From the NCBI GenBank assembly GCA_000442015.1, contig KE561067.1, forward strand, positions 1 through 64,000: DNA of 64,000 bases, given 5' to 3'. Origin of the DNA: Rozella allomycis CSF55. Taxonomy: Eukaryota. The notes under the pieces are model-generated. The model worked only from the letters and a program-made list of their open reading frames with translations, was not told where the DNA came from and did not search any database. This document shows, one piece after another, positions 9,732 through 61,229 of this stretch. Within the stretch, counting starts at the first letter, position 1. Each line of letters begins with the position of its first letter. The position numbers and the translations under genes are program-made.

Positions 9732-11039
9732 TTAGACAAACAAAAGTGCAAAGTTAAGCATTATTATTATAGAGGCCACCAAAATCGATGTTACAGTCAA
9801 CCAAGTGGGATTCTTGTTCAATCCCATCCATTCCTTCGACGAAGTAAAATAAACCAAAGGCACAACCGCAAAGGGAAGTTGTAAACTTAAGATCACTTGA
9901 CTCCAAACTAGTAAATTTTGAACTGATGCTTCCCCCATTGATAAAACAACAATTAATGCGGGAAGTATGGCACATGACCTTGTGATCAATCTTCTTATCC
10001 AAGGCTTTATTTTCATATCGAAAAAAGATTCAACGACAATCTGACCCGCCAATGTACCTGTCACTGAAGAGCTCTGACCCGCAAATAAAAGAGCAACAGA
10101 AAAAATTATAGAGGCAGATTTCCCGAGAGAGCCCTCAAGTAATGCGGCTGCTTCCTCTAATGAGTCAACCTTTCGATCTGTAAATGATGCAGAAGCCGTA
10201 ATTAAGATGGCACAGTTGATTAAAAAAGCGAAACATAAGGCAAAAATGGTACCCATGGTCAAATGCGTTACTTTTTCTTTCAAAGAAATGAAATGATGCC
10301 TTGCATTATTCTTTGCTACCATATCTGACTGTAAATACAGGTTATGAGGCATAACAGTTGCTCCAATAATTCCAAGTGAAATAAAAAGTGGATCCTTTTC
10401 CAAAATTTTTAAACTTGGCAAAAACCCCGCGACTATTTCGCTCAATTGGGGCTTCGCCATAAACATATCCGCCAAAAGGCAGGACGAAATTAGCAAAGCT
10501 GTTAATGTCAATACAATTTCAATTGTGCTATTCCCATTTGCATCCAGCCCCATTAAAAGAATGATTACGTCTGCGGAAGTTATAATAATGCCAAGCGAAA
10601 TAGGAATACCGAAAAGAAGTTTAAGGCCTATGGCCGATCCAATGACTTCTGCAAGATCACATGCAATTATAGCCACTTCGGCCACCAAATACATTGGTAT
10701 CCAAAGCCATTTTGTTTGGATGCTCTCTCTTGTCAATTTAGCCAGACCTCTGCTTGTAAATACACCTAACCTAATGCTCAAATATTGTAACACTATAGCT
10801 AAAATGTTTGATAAAAGCACAACATGAAGCAACTTGTACTTGAATTGAGATCCGGCTGCAATATCAGTGGACCAATTTCCAGGGTCCATATATCCAATTG
10901 AGATTATAAAACCTTGCCCAATGCACCGTAATACATTAATTAAAATTCTCATTCTACTTAAATGAGTATTATCCTCAAAATTAAATTCAGAATGGTCTGC
11001 ATCTTCGGATATAAGGGGTGTACCCGACAAAGCCGGCAT
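9732..11039 (-). CDS. NRAMP/SMF divalent metal transporter, intronless
   Basis: GYMDPGNW, DLAEVIGSA, GATVMPHNLYL, GQSSSVTGTLAGQIVVE, SQVILSLQLPFA. Confidence 0.95.
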   Translation of the reverse strand: MPALSGTPLISEDADHSEFNFEDNTHLSRMRILINVLRCIGQGFIISIGYMDPGNWSTDIAAGSQFKYKLLHVVLLSNILAIVLQYLSIRLGVFTSRGLAKLTRESIQTKWLWIPMYLVAEVAIIACDLAEVIGSAIGLKLLFGIPISLGIIITSADVIILLMGLDANGNSTIEIVLTLTALLISSCLLADMFMAKPQLSEIVAGFLPSLKILEKDPLFISLGIIGATVMPHNLYLQSDMVAKNNARHHFISLKEKVTHLTMGTIFALCFAFLINCAILITASASFTDRKVDSLEEAAALLEGSLGKSASIIFSVALLFAGQSSSVTGTLAGQIVVESFFDMKIKPWIRRLITRSCAILPALIVVLSMGEASVQNLLVWSQVILSLQLPFAVVPLVYFTSSKEWMGLNKNPTWLTVTSILVASIIIMLNFALLFV

Positions 11040-11199
11040 TTGTGTAAATTTAAGAATTTTACTAATTGATGTATGCAATATTACAAAGTTTAAAATGATT
11101 TAATCTAGATTATGTGCATTCTTGTTTTTGGAATAAAATATGAATATCTTAAAAGAAAAGTCCAGCCATTTATTTGTAGGAATTTTTGTGGGAGATTCA

Positions 11200-19149: not shown

Positions 19150-19739
19150 TTATGTGGTTGAATTATCTTGATTCATTTCAATCAGACCGCAATCACGGAT
19201 TTTTATAACTTTTGAGGTGATTCCGGTTTTACTCCCCAAACTTTCCAATTCTTTGGTAATCTCTAAGCCTGATACGACTTTGCCAAAAACCACGTGCTTC
19301 CTGTTTAATTTTGGCAATGGTGCGCAAGTGATAAAAAACTGTGATGCGTTAGTATCCTTGCTTCCTGCATTCGCCATTGACAAGAGCCCTTCTTCTGTAT
19401 GTTTAAGCCGAAAATTCTCATCCTTAAATCTTTTGCCATATATAGAGTATCCACCGCTTCCATCACCGTTCACAAAATCGCCCCCTTGGATGACGAAACC
19501 CTGAATAAAAGAATCATTCTTATTTACGGGAATTACTCTATGGAATTTACAACCTTTATATCCACATCCTTTTTCTCCAGTACAAAGAATTTTGAAATTT
19601 TCGCATGTTTTCGGTACCACATCAAAAAACAATTCGACAATTATTCGTCCGACCAAGATCTCATCAACTTCTATTTCTAGGAATACCTAACATCTATATA
19701 CTAATCTAATACGTATTCGTTTTGAACTTTTTGTTTCAT
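19150..19739 (-). CDS. Cyclophilin-type peptidyl-prolyl isomerase, introns 26 and 27 nt
   Basis: [44 protein letters not shown]. Confidence 0.95.
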
Positions 19740-19776
19740 TTCTCAAATTNTTGTTTCATTTCTTAAATTTGGTAAA

Positions 19777-29265: not shown

Positions 29266-30405
29266 TTACAGTTTAAGAATTTTCGATGGTCGATAAAAGA
29301 CAAAAAGAAAAATGATACCAAAAACCACAGCCAGTCTTGCAATTGAATGGGAACTTGCAAAGGGAAATAATTGTCTCAAGAATTTAAAAGAAATGTATAT
29401 TATAAGAAAAGAAACAGCAAAAATAAAAGTTGGATGTACCTTGAGTGTTTTCCTTGCCATTCTATTCGATATAGATTCATCAATGAAGAAATATTTCGGA
29501 CTTTTAACTCCATCCAATTGTTTGTGTTGGTTTTGACTGAGCATTGGACGAATTTCATCAGGTTTTGATTCAATGAGGCTACCATAGAGAATTCCTTCAT
29601 CGCATGTGTTTATTTTGGCGTTAATCATTTTTCCCAAGAAGCAACATGTTTCAGTATTGAATTGAGGGGAGACGAAGACGGTTCTGTAATTTATGTCTTT
29701 TCCTTTAAGATATTCAGATTGGATTTCTGTTATAAGAACATTTTGAATAGTTCCAATATTCTTTTCAGGGGAAAATGAATAGATAATTTCTGATCCATTT
29801 CGATCTGCAACGGTTATTGAAAGGTTTGAAATTTGATCTCTAAACCTTTGAACGAGAACAATGTGATTTCTCAAAGAGTCATTTGTAATATCGAGTGATT
29901 TATAAACTCTATGGTTTAGCAATACTTGGGTTATTTGGTAGGCATTGTTGTTTTCTAATAGAAAGGATAGAGGAATGGCCCCTAGTTTAATCCTGCAATT
30001 CATTGGAATTATTTTTGTTAAAGATTTTAAAATGGATGAAAATTGTTTTGGAAAGCAAAACTCTATTATTATTTCAACTACACCTTCTAGCATAAGCGGA
30101 CTACAATGTATNCTTCTAGCATAAGCGGAATACAATGTATTTACCGTGAAAACATGTTTTAACCTGCTCCAGCAAATCTTCGCTCGTTAAACATATGCCA
30201 AATGGAACATTTTTTACAAATTCTTTATTGCTGATTAAAGTTGAAGTCTCTAACAATCACATTTAAATCTTACTGAAATTGTAACGCTATTCAATGACGA
30301 AGTTTCAGAATTATCATTTTCTATACTGTTGAATATTTTTTTACTATTATTCCGTTCGCTTTCTTTAGTCCTATTTCGAACTTCTTCGACAAGATCCCAG
30401 GTCAT
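29266..30405 (-). CDS. Hypothetical protein with two C-terminal TMs (crosses N join at 30112)
   Basis: MTWDLVEEVR.. joins the 29266-30135 ORF via short introns; C-terminal hydrophobic helices. Confidence 0.5.
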
Positions 30406-30443
30406 TGATTTAAGAAAAATGGAAAAGTAAATGTAAATAAACA

Positions 30444-33400
30444 ATGGTTCTGTTTGGCGAACTTGACATTGTGTAAAAAGAGTATATTGTTGAGAATTAG
30501 TTACTCCACTGGTTCTATCACTAATAGTGTGCAGTCCCAGTACATTGATGAAAAGACGATGCTGGTGGCATTTGGTCATGTGCTCCATTTGTATGACACC
30601 GAAGAGAAGACAATTTTAAGCCAAATGTATGTATGTAAAGATGAAATAACTGCCTTGAGCGTCCATGCCAAAGAGGGAATTGTGGCATTCAGTACAAAAG
30701 TGGAGAGTGACGTCCATTTTCTCTCTTTACCATCACTAAAGGCGTCTCATGTCAAGAGTATAACAGGTATTTTGATTAAAGAAAACTTCATTTAGGTAAA
30801 TGTGAACGTTATTTCATGTTCATCAGGTAATGTTGATGAAAGCGTTCAAAAGGGTTGAGCGATCAAACAACAATATCCATTGACTTTCATGGTGATCGAA
30901 TGGTAGTTCTAGGCGGTGCACCCAGCTTTACTCTGAGTGTGATTGACTGGCGCCAAAACGTTATCCAATGTCAAATTTCGAATGGATCTCCGGCCAAGCA
31001 AGTCCAGTTTAATCCCATGGATAGCCATTACTTTATTACTTTTGGCTATAACCAGTTAAAGTTTTGGTGGATCAAGGAGGGCTATAGAAAGACCAGTTTG
31101 AAGAATGTAACCAAGAGCGAAAGTAGACAGCGAATGGAGATGTTGAATAGAGGAAATGAAGTTATATTCTCTAGGGTGTTGGGTAGAATGATGGATGTTG
31201 ATCCCGTGTGGAATGATAAGAATGAGGTTGTAGTGGTGTTGAATGATGGCAAGGTTATGCGTGTTGGTGTGAATTGTGAATGTGAGCAAATGGATGTCCG
31301 CCTTAATTGTGGAGTGTTAGCTGATTTTAAGTATACCATGAATGGATACGTTATGTGTTACAGAGTAACTTGATTTGATTGCAAGGATAGGATGGAACTG
31401 TTGAATTTCACAAGGAGAGAAAGGAAGCGGAAATAGAAAATGATAATTTTAGAGATTTGAATACAAAATTTGAGCACAAGATAAACCATGTAGTTTTTTC
31501 TCCGTCTCACGAGACCCTAGCAATTGTTGGAAGCAATGGAGAGTTGACAACAATAAACCGTGAAACTTTGAGCAAGGAAAAAGTAAAATAAAACTATATT
31601 ATGTGAAATAAAGCACTTGTTTAATGGAAATAAAGTGAAGAGCATGAGTTTAACGAGTGACCAAGAAATCCTGATGGTGGAAGATGATAAAAGATTGGTA
31701 GTGTTTAATGCAGAAACTAGACAGAGAAGAGGTGAGTAGTTAAAGGGGAGTATATGTAGAATTGTATAGAATCAAGGAAGAGAAAAGGGAAGTGATATGT
31801 GTGTCGCATCCGTTTTTTCGAATGATTGTTGTTGGTCATGAAAATGGGATAGAATTTCATCGGCGAATAGAAAAAGTTGAGAGTGAAGCAGAAAAAGAAG
31901 AGAGTGAGTTGAATGAAGAAACGATGATATTTGAATTCGAGTTGAAAAAGGTCAAGAGGATGAGATTTGACCCTATGGGCCGCCACCTAGTTGTTCATAG
32001 TGAGAGTGGGTTGAGTGTGTTTACGGTTGGCCTGAATGGAATAAATTTTGGCGGCTATTTGAAGAGCAAGGGGAGTATCCAAAGTTTGAGTTTCTATTTA
32101 GTGGAAGAGGAGGTAATTGAGTTTATTAAAAGGAAAAGTTTTCGTATTTGATTGTGCTATGCCACATTGGCCATGAAAGTTTAATTTTCCGGTTCATGTT
32201 TCCGATCGAGGTGATGAATTTCAAGCCTGTTGCGACGACAGAGTATTATATACCCAAGGAGGTTATACCGGTAAGTGAATATTGAGGGTATGAAAGTGTT
32301 GTTCGTACCGGGTTGATTGTGTTGTGAGTGATGTGTTTGCGATACCGAATAGTTTAACGAATGGCAAAGAAGTGATTTATTTGATTGTTGGGGAGAGCAT
32401 TAAAGGTAAGGAATGGAGTGAGAGTTGAAAGGGATGAATTTGCTGTCTAAAAAGCCAACTGATAATGCGAATGAAATACCGACGCTGATATCGAATGCGT
32501 TTAACAATTTGAATGGGCATTTGAAGAGGGCGAAATTTTACCAGAGTTTGAATAGAGAGTGGATGATAACGTTTGGGATGGATGGGAATGTTATGATCCG
32601 GGGTATTTTGGATGTAGAAAAATACCAAATGATTCAAACGAATGAAGGATTCAAGGATGGGATTGCTGAAATAATGATATCGCCAGATTTCAAGTGGCTT
32701 TGTGTTTTGGGGAATGATGGAATATTGAGGTTGATTGAGTGGAAATATACAACGAATGGCAAGAGATTGGCCATGACAGTAGCAGAAGATGTGAAACAAT
32801 TTTACTTGAATCAATTTGAGCATTTTAATAAAATAGAAAAGAATTTTTCATTAATAAAATTTGAGAAAAAGATTAAGGAAATTTCAGAAATAGATCAATC
32901 AGAGACCCTTGTTAAAAGAGAGAATTTGCGAGATAGATTGAGAGAGATTAAAGAAAAGATAAAGCAGATAATAGAGAATAATGGGAGGGTAGATGAGAGT
33001 GAGAGATTGGAGATTGAGGAGATGATAATAGATGAAGAGAAGAGGGAGCGATTGACGTTGCAGGGGATTGAGCAAGTTGATCGAATGAAGAGTGAAATTG
33101 AGAATGAAAATTTGAAGCAAGAAATAATTTTTAGAAAATTGAAATCTGAATTTTGGGATTCAATGAGAGTGAAAGGGAAATCAATTAAATCGTTTGATCT
33201 AAAAATAGATTTGAGAAATTATCCAATCTGTGAAGAAAGAGAAGAAGAAGATTTGATTAAAAAGATTATCAATCTGAGGAAATGTCAACTAGAGTTTGAA
33301 AGGGGGAAAGAGAGAGTGAAAGGTGAAGAGAGAGTGAAAGGTGAAGAGAAAGAGAAAGAGAAGGAGAGAGTGAAGGGTGAAGACAAGCAAAGTTATTTCA

Positions 33401-36262
33401 ATTCAATCTGCAACTTTATTCAAGAGGAAGATAAAGAAGTAACTAGAGAAGGTAAGGAAGTAGTTAGAGAAGGGAGAGAAGGGAGAGAGACTACTTCAAC
33501 ACATACTCCTTCTTCTACCACTACTTCTTCTAATACTTCAACTTCAACTCCTTTTACCACTTCAACCCCCTCTTACCCATCTAACCCCCCTACTACCCCC
33601 ATCAATTCGCTGCTGTTTCATCCCTTCGAGTTGAATTCAATTGAGAAACAAAAAATACAAATTTTGCTAATTAAAGAATTAATTAAAACAATAAAAATAA
33701 AATTCAATTCAAAATTTACAAATTTGTATCAAATGAAAAAAGATGAAATTTCCAAAATAGAAGAAAGAAATTCGCGAATTTTAGAAATAGTGAAAGAATT
33801 AGAGATGAAAGATTATTTAATAAAAAATTATTTTCTGGATGTTGATGAGAACCCAGAATTGTTGTTTCAAAATGATTTAAACAAAAATTCTAAAAAAGAA
33901 ACAATTTCTGAAATTTCCAAAATAGAAGAATGGAAGAAAAGGGGAATAAATTTGATGATGAATGGACGATTGGAATCATTTCAGAATACAGAAAATGAAA
34001 ATAATAAAATTCCAGAATTTATTTCTAAAAATAAATCAGAATTAACAGAAGAAGAAAAGAAGCTATTAAAAGAATATGAAAAGAAACAAAACACAATTAA
34101 AGAAGAATTAGAGAAACATAAAAAAGCATTGGAAACTGAATTGAAGAAAATTTCATCTTTTATTTCTGAAATTGCAATAAATTTTGATCTTAGATTGAAT
34201 CTATTTTTACAAGAAAAAATTTTCACAGATAATCTAATTCTATTTTTAGAACTTGAAATTTCTAAATTACAGAAATCAATTGTATTTAAAAAAGAAAAGG
34301 AAGAAAAAGAAGAAATATTAATTGAAAGGTTGAATGATTTGAAAATAGAAAAGATGAATTGTTTGAATGAGATTCCAGAGATTAAGAAAGATTTAGAGCA
34401 TTGCAGAGAAGGATATGAGAGTTGTTTGAAGAGAGAAAAGGAATTTGAAAAGCAATTTAAAAAAGAGTTTCATCAATATGAATTTTATTACGATTCACTT
34501 TTAAGATTATTCAAAAAGAGGGAATACACAAAGGTAAAGAGATTGAGTTAAAAGGTGATGTAGGTAATGTAAGAGTTAAAGTCTTATAATAGGTAATTCA
34601 ACTATAGTAGTCTTTCACTGCAGGTAATCCCCCCTTTAAGTCTCCAACTGCAGGTAATACCCCCTTCAAGTTTAACTTCTCAAACTTTAACTTCTCAAAA
34701 TAGTTATTTAAAGAATCCATTTAATTCTTTAAATGGAATTGAATCTCTTCTGCCAATTAATGAAAGTGACATCCCAGAAGGTACCTTCTAACCCTTTTAA
34801 AGACCAGGATTGAATGTAGAGATTTGGAATAAATTTCTAGATTTCAGAGAAAAAAAGATTAGATTGGAGCAAGAAGTGAAAATAGCAAATAAAAAATTTA
34901 ATGAAATGCAAAATCTAGTGAATCAAATTGTTTCAGAATCTGAAAAGATAAAAATAGAAACAGAAAAAGTTTCTGCAGATTTCATCAAATTTAAAGAAGC
35001 TTCTTTTCTCTTTTCTTTCAACGTTGAAGTTTTATGCAAACTCAAACAAGGCCAAGTTGAAGTTTCTCAAGCCCCTGTCCTAACTGACTATTCTGATGCA
35101 TGTCTCATCAACAGAAATATTGTAGAGAAATTAAATTCTCAAATTTTGCAAATTGCTTCTCAAAAAGTGGAAGCTCTAAATGAGATTAAAAATTACAGAA
35201 AAGGTAATTAGAAGGGATTTGAGGTGAGATAGGTAATCAGGGAGTTGAAAGGGTGAGATAGGTAACAGAGGGATATTTAAGGTGAGATAGGTAACAGAGA
35301 GTTGAAAGGGTGAGATAGGTAACAAAGGGATTTAGGGTGAGATAGGTACGTTAAAACTAGTAGGATAGAGATAGGTACTTCAATCTGTGGCTTATATATT
35401 AGGTACTCGGATCTGTGGCTTATATATTAGGTACTCGGATCTGTGGCTTATGAAATAGGTACTTGGATCTAAAACTATTTCATATAGGTACCTTCTAGTC
35501 TCTCCCCTTTATCTAGGTAAATACATTCAAAATCCTTAAAAAGGGATTCATTATTTGGAGTGGGAAAATAAAGTTTTGGACTTTCAACAGGAAAATTTAA
35601 TACTGAAAACAAGAGACATTCAACTGTTGAGAGTTTCTAAACAAATGCAAGATTTCATTCGCTCTGGTGACGATGGAAAACATTCAAACGAAATTTCATT
35701 AATTGAAAAAAGATTTGAACACGCAGAAAAAGTATTTTCTTTTCTTTTATTATTATAGAATCATCAACACAAGATTAATGAAAAGAAAAGATTAATTAAA
35801 TCGTTGAAATTGAAAATTAATCAAATTTCTTCTTCAAATGTTGATCTAAGCCACAAGTTGACAAATCTAGACTTGCTAGTCAAAGAGAGGCAACTAAGTG
35901 ATGGGGGAGATAGAAGTGGAGTTGAGAGGGTGGGAGATAGAAGTGGAAGTGAGAGGGTGGAAGATGATCATCGAGATAACGAGAAAGAGAAAGATGGAAT
36001 TGAGTTTAATAGGGTTGATAATGGTCATGGTGATATCTCTAATCAATCCATGGACACAAGTAATTCTCAATGTCATTCTCTAGTAGATAATCTAAAACAC
36101 GTCCAGATTTATAGCAGATTGAAAGAAAAAATTTCAGCTCAATCAGACGATCTTTTCATTCTCAAACAAGAAGTAGAAAAATTAAAGTCTAAATCTATTC
36201 CCTTGTTTGGCAGAATCAATTCTTCAAACATCAACCCCTGGTCGTCATTCGTAAAGAAATAA
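30444..36262 (+). CDS. CFAP43: Cilia- and flagella-associated protein 43 (WD40 + coiled coil), with three compound introns
   Basis: WD40 N-half (PSFTLSVIDW, VQFNP); SEFWDSMRVKG; PEGLN..W..R..KI..E; LKQGQVEV..DYSDACLINR; RKG|IHYLEWE..RDIQLLRVSK. Confidence 0.85.
30767..30852 (+). other. Compound intron: 3 tandem GT-AG units (29, 31, 26 nt)
   Basis: 30767-30795, 30796-30826, 30827-30852; only complete removal restores the frame (SITG|LSDQ). Confidence 0.8.
34534..34653 (+). other. Compound intron: 3-4 tandem GT-AG units (30, 29, 31, 30 nt)
   Basis: 34534-34563, 34564-34592, 34593-34623, 34624-34653; units 1-3 contain in-frame stops, unit 4 is in frame and could be exonic. Confidence 0.75.
35204..35543 (+). 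repeat. Compound intron: tandem array of 12 GT-AG units of 27-29 nt
   Basis: Every unit begins GTA and ends AG; removing all 340 nt gives AAA G|GG ATT CAT (RKGIHYLEWE). Confidence 0.88.
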
Positions 36263-39281: not shown

Positions 39282-40437
39282 ATGTCGTTTAATCAAATCA
39301 AATATCGTAAGCTTGTTGATATTGTAAGTTTTTTCAAAGCACCAATAGATTTTGCAGTTGCATATGGTTCCGCGGTATTTCCTCAATCACAACGCCAGAA
39401 AAAAAACACGGTAGCAAAATTTATTGTCATGTACAAGATGTATGATTTTATTTTTGGAGTTAAATCACCATTGGAATTCCATTCAGAAAATATGAAACAA
39501 AATCCGGACCATTATTCTTCTCTTAAACTATTTGGCCCTAAAATTGTCTCATGCATTCAAGAAAAGATACCAGCCCATATTTATTACAACACTTTAATAC
39601 ACATAAATGGAAATCTTATAAAGTATGGAGTTGTCTCATTGAATGATTTGTCCAATGACTTAAAGAACTGGAATACAATGTTCCTAGCCGGAAGAATGCA
39701 TAAACCTATTTCCATTATTAAATCGAATTCCGATTTAGACAAACTTCTATCTAGAAATTTGGAGTATGCAGTTTATACTTCTCTACTCCTATTACCGAAA
39801 TCTTTTACTTTAAAAGATTTGTATTTAGCGATTACTTCATTATCATATATTGGGGACCCAAGAAAAGGTATTGCTGAAAATCCAAATAAGATTGAAAACA
39901 TTGTTAACCACCAATTCGATTGTTTCAATACCATGTATTTACCAGNAACACACTTTTATCTAGAAATTTGGAGTACGCCGTTTATACTTCTCTACTTTTA
40001 TTACCGAAATCTTTTACATTAAAAGATTTGTATTTAACGATTACTTCATTATCATACATTGGGGACCCAAGAAAAGACATTGCAGAAAATCCAAATAAGA
40101 TTGCAAACATTGTTAACCACCAATTCGATTGTTTCAATACCATGTATTTACCAGTGCTAGAAAAATTGGCAATCATTGAGAAAGGTATTGTAACAAGGAC
40201 GATCCCATTTGAAACCATTATTGAAAACTTGTCACCGCATTTGAAATTGAAACTAAATGGCAATTATTCAAAACCTAATGTAATTAAGAGTAATAATAAT
40301 TATTTTACTTAATAGACTTGAAAGATATAGTAAACATGCCGTCCATTTTCCAGGCCGCAAAAGGTTTGCTAACTGCCGGAGTTTATAAATCTGCAATTTA
40401 TTCGTTCAGAAAATTGAAAAAATCTTTTAATAAATGA
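39282..40437 (+). CDS. TAM41: Mitochondrial CDP-DAG synthase Tam41 (internal ~200-nt duplication around N at 39946)
   Basis: FAVAYGSAVFPQ, MYDFIFGV, IKYGVV..DLKNWNTMFLAGRMHKP, LSYIGDPR..ENPNKIENIV, QAAKGLLTAG. Confidence 0.93.
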
Positions 40438-58156: not shown

Positions 58157-61100
58157 ATGGTAAAGGTACTCAATGTAGCTGAAAAACCTTCTATGGCGAA
58201 AGCCATAGCAGATCATTTATCAAACCATCAATTTAGCACTGTATACTATAAGATAATAATATTTGTAGAGAAAAGGCGTAGACAAGTATTGCAACAATTT
58301 TGATTTTATTGTGTACCAGCAAAGAAACCAGATGCAGTGTGAGATGACAATGACGAGTGTTCTTGGACATGTAATGGAATATGCGTTTCCAGACGAGACG
58401 AAGAGTTGGACAGGCTATCCAGTTGAAAATATGTTTTCCATACCGATAGTGAAAAAAGTTCATCCAGTAGAGGCATGATAGATTAATAATAGGACAAGGA
58501 GAGAATAAAGGTTAATTTGGAGAGGGAGAGTCGAAAAGCAGAGTGGCTAATTATTTGGACTGATTGTGACAGAGAAGGCGAGAATATTGGGATGGAAATT
58601 TCAGAAATATGCAGACGGGCGAATCCAAGACTATTAGTGTATAGAGCCAGATTTTCTGTTGTCAATGGAAGGTTTGAATGATTTTGTTTGAAGAGTAGGG
58701 AGTTGAAGAATTCATTTGAGAATCTGTCGCAGATAGATGTGAATATGAGTATGGCGGTTGATACGAGACAAGAGCTTGATTTAAGGATTGGGGCTGCCTT
58801 TACGCGCCTTCAAACGATAAATTTACAAAGCAAATTTAAGAGTTTAGAAAAGACTGTGATATCGTATGGCCCATGCCAATTTCCAACGCTTGGATTTATT
58901 GTTGATCAGTATAGAAAAAATAAAGATTTTGTTTCTGAATGTTTTTGGAGTTTGACGGCAACGTTGGAAAAGGAAAATAAGAATTGCGTTTGTTCATGGG
59001 CCAGGGGAAGCATATTTGATGAAAGAGTTGTTGAACTTTATAAAACGATTTGCCAAAGAAGCCCGATAGCCAGAATAATGAAAGTGGATGAAAAGGCTAC
59101 AAAGAAATAGTAATAGAGATGATTGAATGAAATAGTCGACCCTTGCCATTGACAACTGTTGAATTTCAAAAGTTTGGCACGCGATATTTAAAGATGAGTT
59201 CGCACAAACTGATGAATGTAAGTTGATTCTATTTTATTGAAAGATTGCAGAGAAATTGTATAACAGGGGTATAATTAGTTATCCTAGAACAGAAACAGAT
59301 GTATTTGAGAATGGAATTGATTTGAAGGGGTTGATTCAAAAACATTGCGATAACGAAATTTGGGGAAATTATTGCCAGGGTTTAATGCAGGGGTCATTTA
59401 TGTTCCCAAGAAAAGGAAAACACAACGACAAGGCGCATCCCCCAATCCATCCAACGATGAATGTAAATAATTTGGAAGGAGAAGAATTTAAAGTTTATGA
59501 ATTTATAACGAGAAGGTAAAATAGAATAATTGAATGGGAAAGATTTTTAGCTTGTTGCTCAAAGGATGCGTTAGGCGTTGAAACAAAAGTTGAAATAAAA
59601 ATTGCTGATGAAACGTTTGCATGTTCGGGGCTTTTGATTACGGAAAGAAATTATTTAGAAATTTACATTTATGATAAATGGAATGAAAATAGTTTACCAA
59701 AATTAATTGTTGGTGAAGAAATCAAAGCAAAAATTTCAAAAACGAATGGAAAGACTACTGCGCCACCATTGTTAACTGAAGGCGATTTGATTGGATTGAT
59801 GGACAAGAATGGGATTGGCACTGATGCAACAATTCATGATCACATTAAGAAAATTCAAGATAGAAATTATGCGAAAAAGACTTCAAAGGGTTTCATTCCA
59901 ACGCCACTTGGTCTTTCTCTAGTTGAAGGCTACGACGCTTACAATTTTGATCATTCTTTAACAAAGCCCCAATTAAGAGCTTTAATGGAATCTGAAATGA
60001 ACAATGTTTGTCAAGGTTTAAAATCTAAAAATCAAGTTTTAGAACAGGGAATCAATTTATACTTTAATTTATTCATTAAAACTAAAAATTCTATCAATTT
60101 GTTATTGCAGGTAAAATGTTATGACTTTCTAAAAATAGGTATGGCTTAGTGTTAATCTATTTTTAGAAAGTTTCAGAAAATTTGAATCAAGAAATTTCAG
60201 AAGATGACCACGTTGAGATAAATCGACATTCAAATTATGTTCAACCGTCAAACAATTCAAATTCAAATTATGTTCAACCGTCAAACTCAAATTCAAGTTC
60301 AAGTTATGTTCAACCGTCAAATTCTTTTTCTTCAAACACATCAAATACTTTTTCTTCAAACTCTTCTAACTCNGTTCAACCGTCAAACAATTCAACTTCC
60401 AACTCATCAAACTCCTTTAACCCTTCAAACACATCAAACTCATATAACCCTTCAAATCCATCGCTGGAACAAAATACAAATTCCCCTCCTTGTAGCTGCG
60501 GTTTAAATTCATTTCTCTTCACAGTCAAAAAACAAGGCCCCAATCTTGGCAAAAAATTCTATTCTTGCTCAAAACCTCAAAATGAAAAATGCGATTTTTT
60601 TCAGTGGCTTGATCCTCCAATAGATCAGTCTGCGCCACAAAGATCTGTAGATGATTTTGGCTCTTCAATATCTTGTAACTGCAATAAAATAGTCCAATTA
60701 AAAACTGTCCAGAAATCTGGCCCAAATTATGGGAAAAAGTTTTATTCTTGTTCTACTTGCGATTTCTTTCTGTGGAGTCTCAACGACTCTTCCCACAGTC
60801 AATCCATTCAAGAGGCAATCAAATGCGATTGTGGGTTGGAATCTGTTTCTTTCACGTGTCAAAAGCCTCCAAATAATGGAAGAAAATTTTTTAAATGTCC
60901 AAAACAAAGTGGAATGAAATGTTCGTTTTTTCAATGGGCTGATGAACATTCAACTACAAGGGTTGATCATAGTACAAGAGTTAATTACAATTCAAGAGAT
61001 AGCAGCAATACATGGGATAACGCTAATACATGGGATAACAACAATTCAAGGGTTAATCAATATAATTCAAGGTCTAATCATAATTCTTCTAATACAAATT

Positions 61101-61229
61101 CATATAATTCAAATGCAAACGTTGATTGCTTTCTTTGCAAACGAGTAATCTTTTCGTATTTCATTTAATCTTTAGAAGGGACACTTTGCTAATAATTGTC
61201 CATCAAAGAAGAGAAGGCAAAATCATTAA
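58157..61229 (+). CDS. TOP3: DNA topoisomerase III alpha with three GRF zinc fingers and a CCHC knuckle
   Basis: VLNVAEKPS, MTSVLGH, WTDCDREGENIG, SYGPCQFPTLG, ISYPRTET, AHPPIHP, GIGTDAT; C.CG..GPN.GKKFY.C..C.FFQW. Confidence 0.95.
60111..60166 (+). other. Compound intron: 2 tandem 28-nt GT-AG units
   Basis: 60111-60138 and 60139-60166; only removal of both reaches the open frame AAA GTT TCA. Confidence 0.75.

What the first reader, a model, noticed from the sequence alone, without database searches (positions are those of the whole stretch)
35204..35543. A 340-nt intron built from 12 head-to-tail mini-introns (zero-length exons, recursive-splicing array)
Seen: this CFAP43 intron splits without remainder into 12 units starting at 35204, 35233, 35262, 35291, 35319, 35346, 35375, 35403, 35431, 35459, 35488 and 35517. 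Lengths are 29,29,29,28,27,29,28,28,28,29,29,27. Each starts GTA and ends AG, matching the size and form of ordinary introns here. Unit interiors fall into subfamilies: 1-5 end GGTGAGATAG, 7-9 resemble GTACTCGGATCTGTGGCTTATATATTAG, and 11-12 are unrelated. The AG|GTA junction and the spacing hold throughout. Removing everything restores RKG|IHYLEWE. Established: recursive splicing at AG|GT ratchet points is known from very long animal introns. Inference: a spliceosome tuned to about 28 nt removes this intron one unit at a time, in any order, since each excision recreates AG|GT. I do not know of a description of this at such a small scale.
Basis: partly seen in the sequence, partly recalled or inferred. 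Interest (0 to 1): 0.96.

Follow-up and report, generated by a model that had tools for sequence, protein, structure and literature searches.

The report
Twelve back-to-back mini-introns in CFAP43
A 340-base gap in a flagellar gene of a Rozella-like parasitic fungus is built from twelve complete 27-29-base introns laid end to end, which suggests, but without RNA data does not prove, that the cell cuts this long intron out piece by piece.

Summary
Window 35204-35543 splits without remainder into 12 GTA...AG units of 27-29 nt. That is the size of ordinary introns here, which peak at 26-29 nt. No chain longer than 3 units appeared in 200 simulated windows. The host gene is CFAP43. Hydra and bird orthologues read ...RK|GIH.LEW... 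without a gap across the array, so all 340 nt must leave the mRNA.

The same gene holds two more arrays, of 3 units (30767-30852) and 4 units (34534-34653).

The window is not from a dicyemid, as I first guessed. Its Nramp ORF is 100% identical to a Rozella allomycis protein.

All 16 internal junctions read AG|GTA, although 10 of 19 units resemble no other unit. In units 1-5 both ends are invariant while every middle column varies. This points to selection on each unit's own splice sites, and so to stepwise removal.

No RNA evidence could be obtained. The mechanism therefore stays inferred. Zero-length exons are known from flies, vertebrates and S. pombe. I found no description of such an array.

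The parts
30444..36262 (+). CFAP43 gene, model from ATG to TAA. With 9 single introns and the 3 arrays removed it is one open frame of about 1676 aa.
   Evidence: Pfam PF25828 CC_Cfap43, E 2.5e-63, on the 32422-34551 ORF. Four intron combinations give a single-stop ORF of 1674-1678 aa. MAFFT alignment with Hydra, bird and Tetrahymena CFAP43.
35204..35543 (+). Array C: 12 head-to-tail GTA..AG units of 27-29 nt (340 nt, phase 1), between ...AGAAAAG and GGATTCAT...
   Evidence: Orthologues are contiguous across it.
35204..35345 (+). Units C01-C05 (family A): a 57-nt two-unit block repeated about 2.4 times. All start GTAA and end GGTGAGATAG.
   Evidence: TRF period 57, 2.4 copies, 88% matches. In the alignment, 14 of 14 terminal columns are invariant and 15 of 15 middle columns vary.
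35346..35374 (+). Unit C06, 29 nt, with no significant relative among the units.
35375..35487 (+). Units C07-C10 (family B): three near-identical 28-mers plus C10, which shares only the first 12 nt.
   Evidence: TRF period 28, 3.5 copies, 90%. Pattern search. C10 against C09: 6 of 5000 shuffles score as well.
35488..35543 (+). Units C11 (29 nt) and C12 (27 nt), unrelated to the other units. C11 shares its first 10 nt with the single intron at 34781.
   Evidence: 37 of 5000 shuffles score as well, which is weak.
34808..35203 (+). Exon upstream of array C, ending ...NYRK + G of a split Gly codon.
35544..35731 (+). Exon downstream of array C, starting (G)GG ATT CAT = GIHYLEWENK...
30767..30852 (+). 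Array A: 3 units (29, 31, 26 nt) that are mutually dissimilar, between ...KSIT and GLSDQ...
34534..34653 (+). Array B: 4 units (30, 29, 31, 30 nt; 120 nt in all) that are mutually dissimilar. It sits where relative L001 has one 27-nt intron.
34654..34713 (+). Uncertain stretch after array B. It starts AG|GTAATA with an 18-nt near copy of unit B4. It is either coding (VIPPSSLTSQ...) or a fifth, 60-nt in-frame unit. It contains a 15-nt internal tandem duplication.
   Evidence: 1 of 5000 shuffles. (34671-34699, period 15). Frame logic.
34781..34807 (+). Ordinary single 27-nt intron, shown as an example. The others are 30473-30500, 31365-31390, 31583-31613, 31732-31759, 32113-32138, 32271-32296, 32406-32431 and 35732-35758.
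35914..35967 (+). Two in-frame 27-nt repeats in the last exon, related to units C02/C04 but starting AAGTGG instead of GTAAC.
   Evidence: 3 of 5000 shuffles.

Best explanation
Array C is a minisatellite whose repeat unit is one whole spliceosomal mini-intron.

Origin. Tandem duplication of 28-nt and 57-nt blocks added copies, and older copies diverged. Each copy kept its own 5' GTA, its 3' AG and the 26-31-nt length that this organism's splicing machinery uses.

Removal (inferred). The pre-mRNA is cleared by serial splicing, mostly one unit per reaction and sometimes several. The order is most likely 5' to 3' as the RNA emerges. Neighbouring units share a junction and cannot be engaged at the same time. 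Every ligation recreates ...AG|GTA..., which is a zero-length exon, so the next unit can follow. All routes end in the same mRNA, RK|GIHYLEW.

Incomplete products. For 10 of 12 units, a retained unit meets a stop codon within itself; for units 7 and 8 the stop comes 54 nt in. Such products cannot give a variant protein.

Function. The array itself probably has none. It persists because each new copy removes itself at the RNA level.

Shown: the architecture, the need for total removal, the duplication history and the conservation pattern. Inferred: the stepwise excision and its order.
For: (1) The units are exact and far beyond chance.

(2) Ordinary introns predicted in the window have the same form. 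There are 79 predicted introns of 24-34 nt with a mode at 26-29. The 61 outside CFAP43 have a mean of 27.4 nt.

(3) All three gaps in this gene that are longer than 34 nt (86, 120 and 340 nt) split completely into such units.

(4) All 16 internal junctions in the three arrays read AG|GTA. Yet 10 of 19 units (A1-3, B1-4, C06, C11, C12) have no unit relative above the 99.9% shuffle threshold. Recent copying therefore cannot explain why their junctions and spacing are kept.

(5) In units C01-C05 the first 4 and last 10 columns are invariant (0 of 14 vary), while 15 of 15 middle columns vary, indels included. Fisher p is 1.3e-8 for this post-hoc split, and 0.017 for the pre-set split of 3+2 terminal bases. 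Family B keeps GTACT and TAG.

(6) Orthologues align gap-free across arrays A and C, so no exon was lost there.

(7) Array B sits where relative L001 has one 27-nt intron, which fits growth from a single intron.

(8) The 371 nt spanning the array and its exon flanks show no special RNA fold that could bring the outer sites together (z -0.41).

(9) Established knowledge: juxtaposed AG|GT sites are used as zero-length exons in Drosophila (PMC8605326, abstract seen) and in a 336-nt S. pombe intron (10.1101/226894, passages read).
Against: No RNA evidence of any kind supports the mechanism.

GTA, AG and the right length do not suffice for splicing here. Predicted exons hold 67 sense-strand GTA..AG stretches of 26-29 nt in 37 kb, with no clear dip at that spacing. 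Having the motifs therefore does not prove use.

Units C01-C05 are G-rich and score at or below the lowest reference introns on composition. Units C07-09, C11 and C12 score low on the end matrices. The gene's own single introns at 32406 and 34781 score equally low.

Part of the junction identity in array C is simply recent copying (units 1-5 and 7-9).

Twelve serial reactions multiply any inefficiency.

In E. cuniculi, a relative, a 76-nt intron is spliced better than ~25-nt ones (PMC6349667), so a strict upper size limit is not expected in this lineage.

My intron census comes from a crude home-made gene finder and from one 64-kb window.
Confidence: 0.55

Rival explanations
1. One-step excision. 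The spliceosome pairs the outermost 5' site (35204) with the outermost 3' site (35543) and removes 340 nt as one lariat. The internal AG|GTA sites are unused relics of tandem duplication.
For: Units 1-5 and 7-9 are recent copies, so their junctions need no selection to look intact. GTA/AG/length alone is not sufficient for splicing in this genome. Several units have atypical composition or low matrix scores. A relative's spliceosome handles a 76-nt intron well (PMC6349667, passages).
Against: Ten of 19 units have no detectable relative yet keep AG|GTA and a 26-31-nt spacing. In units 1-5 only the ends are invariant. Chance decomposability is 180 of 200,000 at 86 nt, 3 of 200,000 at 120 nt and 0 of 50,000 at 340 nt. 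No fold brings the outer sites together. No mechanism is known that would make a spliceosome skip 11 internal sites identical in form to those it uses; this last point is inference.
Confidence: 0.22
2. A regulatory device. The array is kept because many serial splicing steps delay or throttle CFAP43 mRNA, for instance as a timer or a decay switch tied to zoospore formation.
For: All three arrays of 3 or more units in the 64-kb window lie in this one flagellar gene. Ten of 12 units carry an in-frame stop in the entry phase within the unit itself.
Against: Copy history looks like ordinary minisatellite turnover. The relative L001 has 8 single introns and no array in the same gene region. Array C sits at a position where none of the relatives examined shows a break, so nothing is conserved. 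Stops in AT-rich 28-mers are expected by chance.
Confidence: 0.05
3. An assembly artefact: a collapsed, expanded or mis-joined repeat.
For: This assembly does contain artefactual direct repeats. Four of 9 single Ns (541, 19750, 30112, 39946) sit between near-identical copies of 30, 19, 28 and 208 nt.
Against: There is no N in or next to any array. Only units 7-9 are near-identical (84 nt). The other units differ enough to be placed by ordinary reads. The array length keeps the reading frame of a 1676-aa conserved protein. Copy number within units 7-9 could still be off.
Confidence: 0.03
4. A dead or dying gene: the arrays are not removed and CFAP43 is a pseudogene.
For: No protein containing this exon at high identity was found in the protein libraries; the best hit was 55%. 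The gene may therefore be unannotated.
Against: About 5 kb of coding sequence stays open once GT-AG units are removed, with conserved blocks on both sides of each array. A frame that long would not survive without selection.
Confidence: 0.03

Closest known systems
Recursive splicing at ratchet points (zero-nucleotide exons) in long Drosophila and vertebrate introns
   Same: A 3' splice site directly abuts a 5' splice site (AG|GT). Ligation of the upstream exon regenerates a 5' site, so the intron leaves in pieces (PMC8605326, abstract seen in the listing; further details recalled).
   Different: There the host introns are tens of kilobases, with one to a few ratchet points and pieces of kilobases. 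Here there are 11 junctions in 340 nt, and every piece is a full-size ordinary intron of the species. No RNA proof exists here.
Zero-length exon in the 336-nt intron of S. pombe SPNCRNA.445
   Same: A short-intron fungus, an intron of almost the same total length, an internal AG|GT junction, and complete removal confirmed there by RT-PCR (bioRxiv 10.1101/226894, passages read).
   Different: That paper's discussion counts two instances of recursive splicing in all; here there are 11 junctions in one intron. The pieces there are not uniform mini-introns, and no tandem-repeat origin is described.
Introns born from tandem arrays in human genes (Zhuo et al. 2007 PNAS), amphioxus 'mirages' and the F7 IVS7 37-bp minisatellite
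   Same: Minisatellite units that carry splice signals sit at or in introns and offer repeated splice sites. Sources: the Zhuo title only, from reference lists, the paper itself not held; PMC3087553, passages; PMC1557585, abstract in the listing.
   Different: Those units span an exon-intron border or carry one kind of site. They are not each a complete minimal intron, and they create alternative splicing. Here every unit is a whole intron and all routes give one mRNA.
Mini-introns of microsporidia, rozellids, dicyemids, myxozoans and ciliates
   Same: Introns of about 22-30 nt with little more than GTA and AG as signals. Sources: PMC6349667 (~25 nt in E. cuniculi, ~30 nt in the R. allomycis S23 gene); PMC13644364 (Results section); PMC2222250 (passages).
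   Different: Those reports describe single introns. None of the passages or sections I read mentions head-to-tail arrays. The supplements of these papers were not available to me.
Stwintrons (spliceosomal twin introns) of fungi
   Same: Two introns occupy one site and must be removed in consecutive reactions (PMC8469720, abstract in the listing).
   Different: Stwintrons are nested, one intron interrupting a splice signal of the other, with an obligatory order. Here the units are side by side and no order is imposed by the sequence.

Membership tests
Spliceosomal GT-AG mini-intron of this genome (each unit taken singly) | Starts GTA and ends AG | tested here: met
   12 of 12 units in array C, 3 of 3 in array A and 4 of 4 in array B.
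Spliceosomal GT-AG mini-intron of this genome (each unit taken singly) | Length within the range of ordinary introns (24-34 nt, mode 26-29) | tested here: met
   Units are 26-31 nt, singles 24-32 nt. Units average 1.3 nt longer (28.7 against 27.4; Mann-Whitney p 0.001, units not independent).
Spliceosomal GT-AG mini-intron of this genome (each unit taken singly) | Interior and end composition like bona fide introns | tested here: inconclusive
   On the end matrices C01-06 and C10 fall mid-range, while C07-09, C11 and C12 fall in the lowest 2-13%. On composition C01-05 fall at or below the lowest 8% of reference introns, but so do this gene's own single introns at 32406 and 34781.
Spliceosomal GT-AG mini-intron of this genome (each unit taken singly) | Absent from the mature mRNA, so that removal restores a conserved reading frame | tested here: met
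   Met for each array as a whole, by alignment with orthologues. Excision of single units cannot be told apart from excision of the whole.
Spliceosomal GT-AG mini-intron of this genome (each unit taken singly) | Excised as its own lariat | not testable with these tools
   No RNA holder was listed.
Recursive splicing / zero-length exon | A 3' site immediately followed by a 5' site inside an intron (AG|GT) | tested here: met
   11 junctions in array C, all AG|GTA.
Recursive splicing / zero-length exon | Ligation of the upstream exon to the junction regenerates a usable 5' site | tested here: met
   The upstream exon ends AAAAG and every unit starts GTA, so each product reads AAAAG|GTA, like the original site. 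This is read from the sequence only.
Recursive splicing / zero-length exon | Partly spliced intermediates or piecewise lariats seen in RNA | not testable with these tools
Recursive splicing / zero-length exon | Very long host intron (the kilobases-long class described in animals) | tested here: not met
   340 nt. The 336-nt S. pombe case shows that length is not essential.
Minisatellite (tandem repeat) | Head-to-tail copies with recognisable sequence similarity | tested here: met
   Met for C01-05 (period 57/29) and C07-10 (period 28). Not met for C06, C11, C12 or for any unit of arrays A and B.
Introner-like dispersed intron family | Many similar intron copies at unrelated sites | tested here: inconclusive
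   Within the window, C04 shares an exact 14-mer with the single intron at 32406 and its exon border (1 of 5000 shuffles). C02 matches the exon repeat at 35914-35967 (3 of 5000). The pairs were picked by eye, all lie in one gene, and there was no genome to search.

The most novel reading that the evidence does not exclude
In this rozellid, introns can lengthen only in quanta of one mini-intron. On this reading every intron above about 35 nt in the genome is a concatemer of self-sufficient 26-31-nt introns separated by zero-length exons. Each is removed by obligatory multi-step recursive splicing. Tandem copying of whole introns is then a so far undescribed way in which introns multiply, and occasionally land in exons, as the 27-nt in-frame repeats at 35914-35967 suggest.
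Probability: 0.3. Interest if true: 0.85.

Novelty: new variant of a known kind. Interest (0 to 1): 0.6.

Why it matters
How 25-30-nt introns are recognised is an open question, as is whether such spliceosomes have an upper size limit. The 2026 paper on the shortest animal introns says so explicitly (PMC13644364, Results).

An array of 12 natural mini-introns in one transcript is a ready-made test object. One RT-PCR or lariat experiment would show whether the machinery works by nearest-neighbour pairing, how efficient a single mini-intron is, and whether zero-length exons work without any exon definition.

It would also show a simple route by which intron number can grow, namely slippage of a whole intron, and why such growth is tolerated.

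On the practical side, gene finders and read mappers that treat such gaps as one long intron, or that forbid introns under about 30-70 nt, will mis-annotate these genes. No protein containing this exon at high identity was found in the libraries searched.

Tried and rejected
Host identity. From the ~27-nt introns, 35% GC, standard code and animal-like Pfam hits I first took the window for a dicyemid. One search overturned this: the Nramp ORF is 100% identical to a protein NCBI names from Rozella allomycis CSF55. The nearest CFAP43 relatives with names are zoosporic fungi. The dicyemid and myxozoan papers remain useful only as parallels.

Whole genome. None is held, so no genome-wide test was possible.

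RNA. No RNA holder was listed; the only run shown had next to none of the words.

Own-species protein. Searches for one spanning the junction found none.

Gene finder. The version allowing introns up to 600 nt chained neighbouring genes together and was discarded. The up-to-60-nt version proposed 16 introns of 43-59 nt. Most of these were replaced by a 26-29-nt intron at or near the same place when length was capped at 34 nt, so I do not count them as evidence for long single introns. One of them, 30087-30144 on the minus strand, spans an assembly join.

Tests that did not discriminate. The splice-site matrices and the composition score did not separate the rival readings. A dip of exonic pseudo-introns at 26-29 nt was not seen.

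Origin from flanking exon. Units were compared with the spliced exon context and showed no similarity: 154 to 2995 of 3000 shuffles scored as well.

Other checks. RNA structure: z -0.41. Rfam: nothing in the array, and three sub-threshold chance hits elsewhere in the gene. Earlier findings of this scan: nothing on this genome or on spliceosomal arrays.

Relatives' loci. No sense-strand chain of 3 or more units in 315 kb. Only L001 is clearly a mini-intron organism.

Literature. Seven searches found no description of mini-intron arrays. Two key papers were not held, and supplements were closed, so an existing mention there cannot be excluded.
Full report
**What is there**

Window 35204-35543 reads as 12 consecutive units. 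Each begins GTA and ends AG. Their lengths are 29,29,29,28,27,29,28,28,28,29,29,27 nt, with nothing left over. All 11 internal junctions, and the two outer ones, read AG|G. The internal ones read [ATC]TAG|GTA[AC].

Tandem Repeats Finder sees only parts of this: a 57-nt and 29-nt period over units 1-5 and a 28-nt period over units 7-10. Units 6, 11 and 12 resemble none of the others. There is no N in the array.

**Is it chance?**

A dynamic search for head-to-tail GTA..AG units of 22-36 nt over both strands finds chains of 12, 4 and 3 units and nothing else above 2. In 200 Markov-1 simulations of the window, the longest chain was 3 units in 13 simulations, 2 in 186 and 1 in one.

Random GTA..AG sequences with the units' composition can be split into such units as follows:
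- 86 nt: 180 of 200,000 trials.
- 120 nt: 3 of 200,000 trials.
- 340 nt: 0 of 50,000 trials.

**The gene**

The surrounding ORFs carry the Cfap43 coiled-coil domain (PF25828, E 2.5e-63) and beta-propeller matches. Hydra CFAP43 (P0001) aligns at residues 916-1427 to 33604-35205 and at residues 1426-1547 to 35540-35929. The 340 nt therefore falls between two adjacent residues...FRK|GIHLLEW... in Hydra and ...YRK|GIHYLEW... here.

Removing 9 single introns and three arrays gives one open frame of about 1676 aa. This is the size of CFAP43 elsewhere, 1595-1678 aa. A MAFFT alignment shows no gap at the 340-nt or the 86-nt junction.

The two other arrays are:
- 30767-30852, with units of 29, 31 and 26 nt.
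- 34534-34653, with units of 30, 29, 31 and 30 nt, 120 nt in all.

The 120-nt array lies in a poorly conserved stretch. It may extend by a 60-nt in-frame unit to 34713.

**The organism**

I first read the window as dicyemid-like, from its ~27-nt introns, 35% GC and standard code. I read the dicyemid and myxozoan literature on that basis. That guess was wrong.

The intronless Nramp ORF at 9732-11099 (minus strand) is 100% identical over 96% of its length to a protein that NCBI names from Rozella allomycis CSF55. The nearest named CFAP43 relatives are zoosporic fungi. Rozella has flagellated zoospores (recalled), which fits a CFAP43 gene. Short (~30 nt) putative introns in its S23 gene, and ~25-nt introns in the related microsporidian E. 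cuniculi, are in print (PMC6349667, passages).

**Ordinary introns here**

I ran a simple codon-usage Viterbi gene finder of my own. It is not validated and covers one window. It predicts 79 introns of 24-34 nt. The counts by length are 24 at 26 nt, 18 at 27, 15 at 28 and 11 at 29.

When I allowed up to 60 nt, it proposed 16 introns of 43-59 nt. Most of these were replaced by a 26-29-nt intron at or near the same place once length was capped at 34 nt. One of them spans an assembly join. Within this window I therefore see no compelling single intron above 34 nt.

The only places where homology or frame demand a longer gap are the three CFAP43 arrays. A possible fourth is 60111-60166 (28+28 nt) in another gene, for which a one-intron solution also exists.

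**Evidence on how the array is removed**

No RNA data could be had, so the argument is evolutionary.

First, 10 of the 19 units in the three arrays have no detectable relative among the units. Their interior global alignment scores fall below the 99.9% shuffle threshold. Yet all 16 internal junctions are AG|GTA and all units are 26-31 nt. Sites that were never used should have decayed along with the interiors.

Second, in the five copies of family A, the first 4 and last 10 columns are invariant, while all 15 middle columns vary, indels included. Fisher p is 1.3e-8 for this post-hoc split, 0.0022 for a 4+3 split and 0.017 for the pre-set 3+2 split. Family B likewise keeps GTACT and TAG.

Third, orthologues show that no residues are missing at arrays A and C, so the arrays are not introns left side by side by the loss of an exon.

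Fourth, the 371-nt stretch holding the array and its exon flanks folds no better than shuffles (z -0.41), and no RNA family matches the array. Nothing suggests a structure that would bring the outer sites together.

From established splicing biology, equivalent sites nearest to each other pair first, and AG|GT junctions regenerate a 5' site. I therefore take stepwise removal as the most likely route, with probability about 0.55. One-step removal is the main rival, at about 0.2.

**Evidence against, told in full**

- GTA, AG and the right length are not enough to make an intron here. Predicted exons contain 67 sense-strand GTA..AG stretches of 26-29 nt in 37 kb, about as many as there are real introns. 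Neighbouring spacings give 73-91, so there is no clear dip.
- Family A units are G-rich and score at or below the bottom 8% of reference introns on composition. Units 7-9, 11 and 12 are in the lowest 2-13% on the end matrices. This gene's own single introns at 32406 and 34781 score just as low, so this may be a property of the gene. Its sense strand has a GC skew of +0.25 to +0.40.
- Much of array C is young, so its junction identity is partly trivial.
- Twelve serial steps compound inefficiency. In E. cuniculi the ~25-nt introns are spliced at under 20% and a 76-nt intron at about 80% (PMC6349667).

**Origin**

Array C grew at least partly by tandem duplication of one-unit and two-unit blocks.

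A metagenomic relative, L001, is 39-48% identical over model residues 1126-1536. It has 8 single mini-introns of 24-30 nt and no array. Removing them gives an open frame of 458 codons. Its positions compare with the window as follows:
- Its 27-nt intron lies where array B lies.
- Its last intron lies where the window's 35732 intron lies.
- It has no intron at RK|G. Instead it has a 26-nt intron inside the Trp codon of ...LEW, 19 nt downstream.

All 11 fetched relatives' proteins read RKGIH.L[ED]W without a break; 10 read LEW and P0142 reads LDW. Seven end right after LEW, as expected if an intron begins there. Among the 80 related loci, 68 read through the site without gap or stop. The other 12 are ambiguous or do not cover it.

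Array B therefore looks like the expansion of an old intron. Array C sits at a position where none of the relatives examined shows a break.

I tested whether the units derive from the flanking exon, as in the Rogers duplication model, and found no similarity.

Some pieces of family A recur elsewhere in the gene:
- An exact 14-mer, GAGAGTTGAAAGGG, spans the 3' border of the single intron at 32406 (1 of 5000 shuffles).
- Two in-frame 27-nt repeats in the last exon, 35914-35967, match C02/C04 but lack the GTA (3 of 5000 shuffles).

These pairs were chosen by eye, so I treat them as leads for local spread of a unit and not as a result.

**Comparison with what is known**

Zero-length exons and recursive splicing are established in Drosophila and vertebrates (PMC8605326, abstract). 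A case was reported in a 336-nt S. pombe intron (10.1101/226894, passages). Repeat-borne splice sites are known from three sources:
- Human tandem arrays (Zhuo 2007; title only, paper not held).
- Amphioxus 'mirages' (PMC3087553, passages).
- The F7 minisatellite (PMC1557585, abstract).

What I did not find in seven full-text searches is an intron made wholly of many complete minimal introns. Supplements were closed and two key papers were not held, so a mention there cannot be excluded.

I rate this a new variant of a known kind. The architecture is certain, the mechanism is probable but unproven, and the generality is unknown because only one 64-kb window could be examined.

**Verdict**

Interest is 0.6. 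One RNA experiment would settle the mechanism.

Noticed in passing
window 541, 19750, 30112, 39946: Four of the 9 isolated N bases lie exactly between near-identical direct repeats of 30, 19, 28 and 208 nt. They look like contig ends that overlapped and were joined without merging. The TRF 'repeats' at 511-571, 19729-19770, 30084-30140 and 39739-40154 are therefore probably assembly artefacts. The apparent 58-nt intron at 30087-30144 (minus strand) is probably a 29-nt one.
   Followed up: partly
window 35914-35967 (+): Two in-frame 27-nt repeats in the last CFAP43 exon (encoding ...GDRSGVERV GDRSGSERV...) are related to array units C02/C04 but start AAGTGG instead of GTAAC. They may be units that lost their 5' site and are now read as protein, or the exon may be the source of the unit.
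   Followed up: partly
window 34654-34713 (+): The sequence right after array B begins with AG|GTAATA and an 18-nt near copy of unit B4. It then contains a 15-nt tandem duplication (34671-34699). The frame allows it to be either coding or a 60-nt fifth unit, and I could not decide which.
   Followed up: partly
window 32406-32433 (+): The single 26-nt intron at 32406 and the first two bases of the next exon share an exact 14-mer (GAGAGTTGAAAGGG) with unit C04, 2.9 kb away. The first unit of array B (34534) is weakly similar as well (242 of 5000 shuffles).
   Followed up: partly
window 60111-60166 (+): Two dissimilar 28-nt GTA..AG units lie head to tail between ORFs 59520-60149 and 60167-61168 of another gene. 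This may be a two-unit array. A solution with one 32-nt intron also exists, and two-unit chains occur at about the chance rate (9 seen against 6.8 expected).
   Followed up: partly
window, predicted exons of genes outside CFAP43: There are 67 sense-strand GTA..AG stretches of 26-29 nt in 37 kb of predicted coding sequence, about as many as real introns, with no clear depletion at that spacing. What tells real mini-introns from these stretches is unexplained.
   Followed up: partly
window 9732-11099 (-): The intronless Nramp ORF is 100% identical to a Rozella allomycis protein. Its next-best matches, at 46-51% identity, are unnamed metagenome proteins; those that carry names are bacterial (Verrucomicrobia, Planctomycetes, Paenibacillus). 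The gene may be of bacterial origin.
   Followed up: no
L001 1-1586: This metagenome contig comes from a relative that also has mini-introns: 8 single introns of 24-30 nt in 1.6 kb of its CFAP43 gene. Two sit at positions shared with the window's gene. One lies inside the Trp codon of ...LEW, 19 nt downstream of array C, where the window has none.
   Followed up: yes
window 30000-36000: There is a strong positive GC skew on the CFAP43 sense strand, +0.25 to +0.40 in 2-kb windows against about +/-0.1 elsewhere. The exons and several of the introns are purine-rich and C-poor, including an 18-nt in-frame exon repeat at 33308-33383.
   Followed up: no
arrays A, B, C against single introns: Array units are on average 1.3 nt longer than single introns of other genes (28.7 against 27.4 nt; Mann-Whitney p 0.001). 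The units are not independent. This is unexplained.
   Followed up: no
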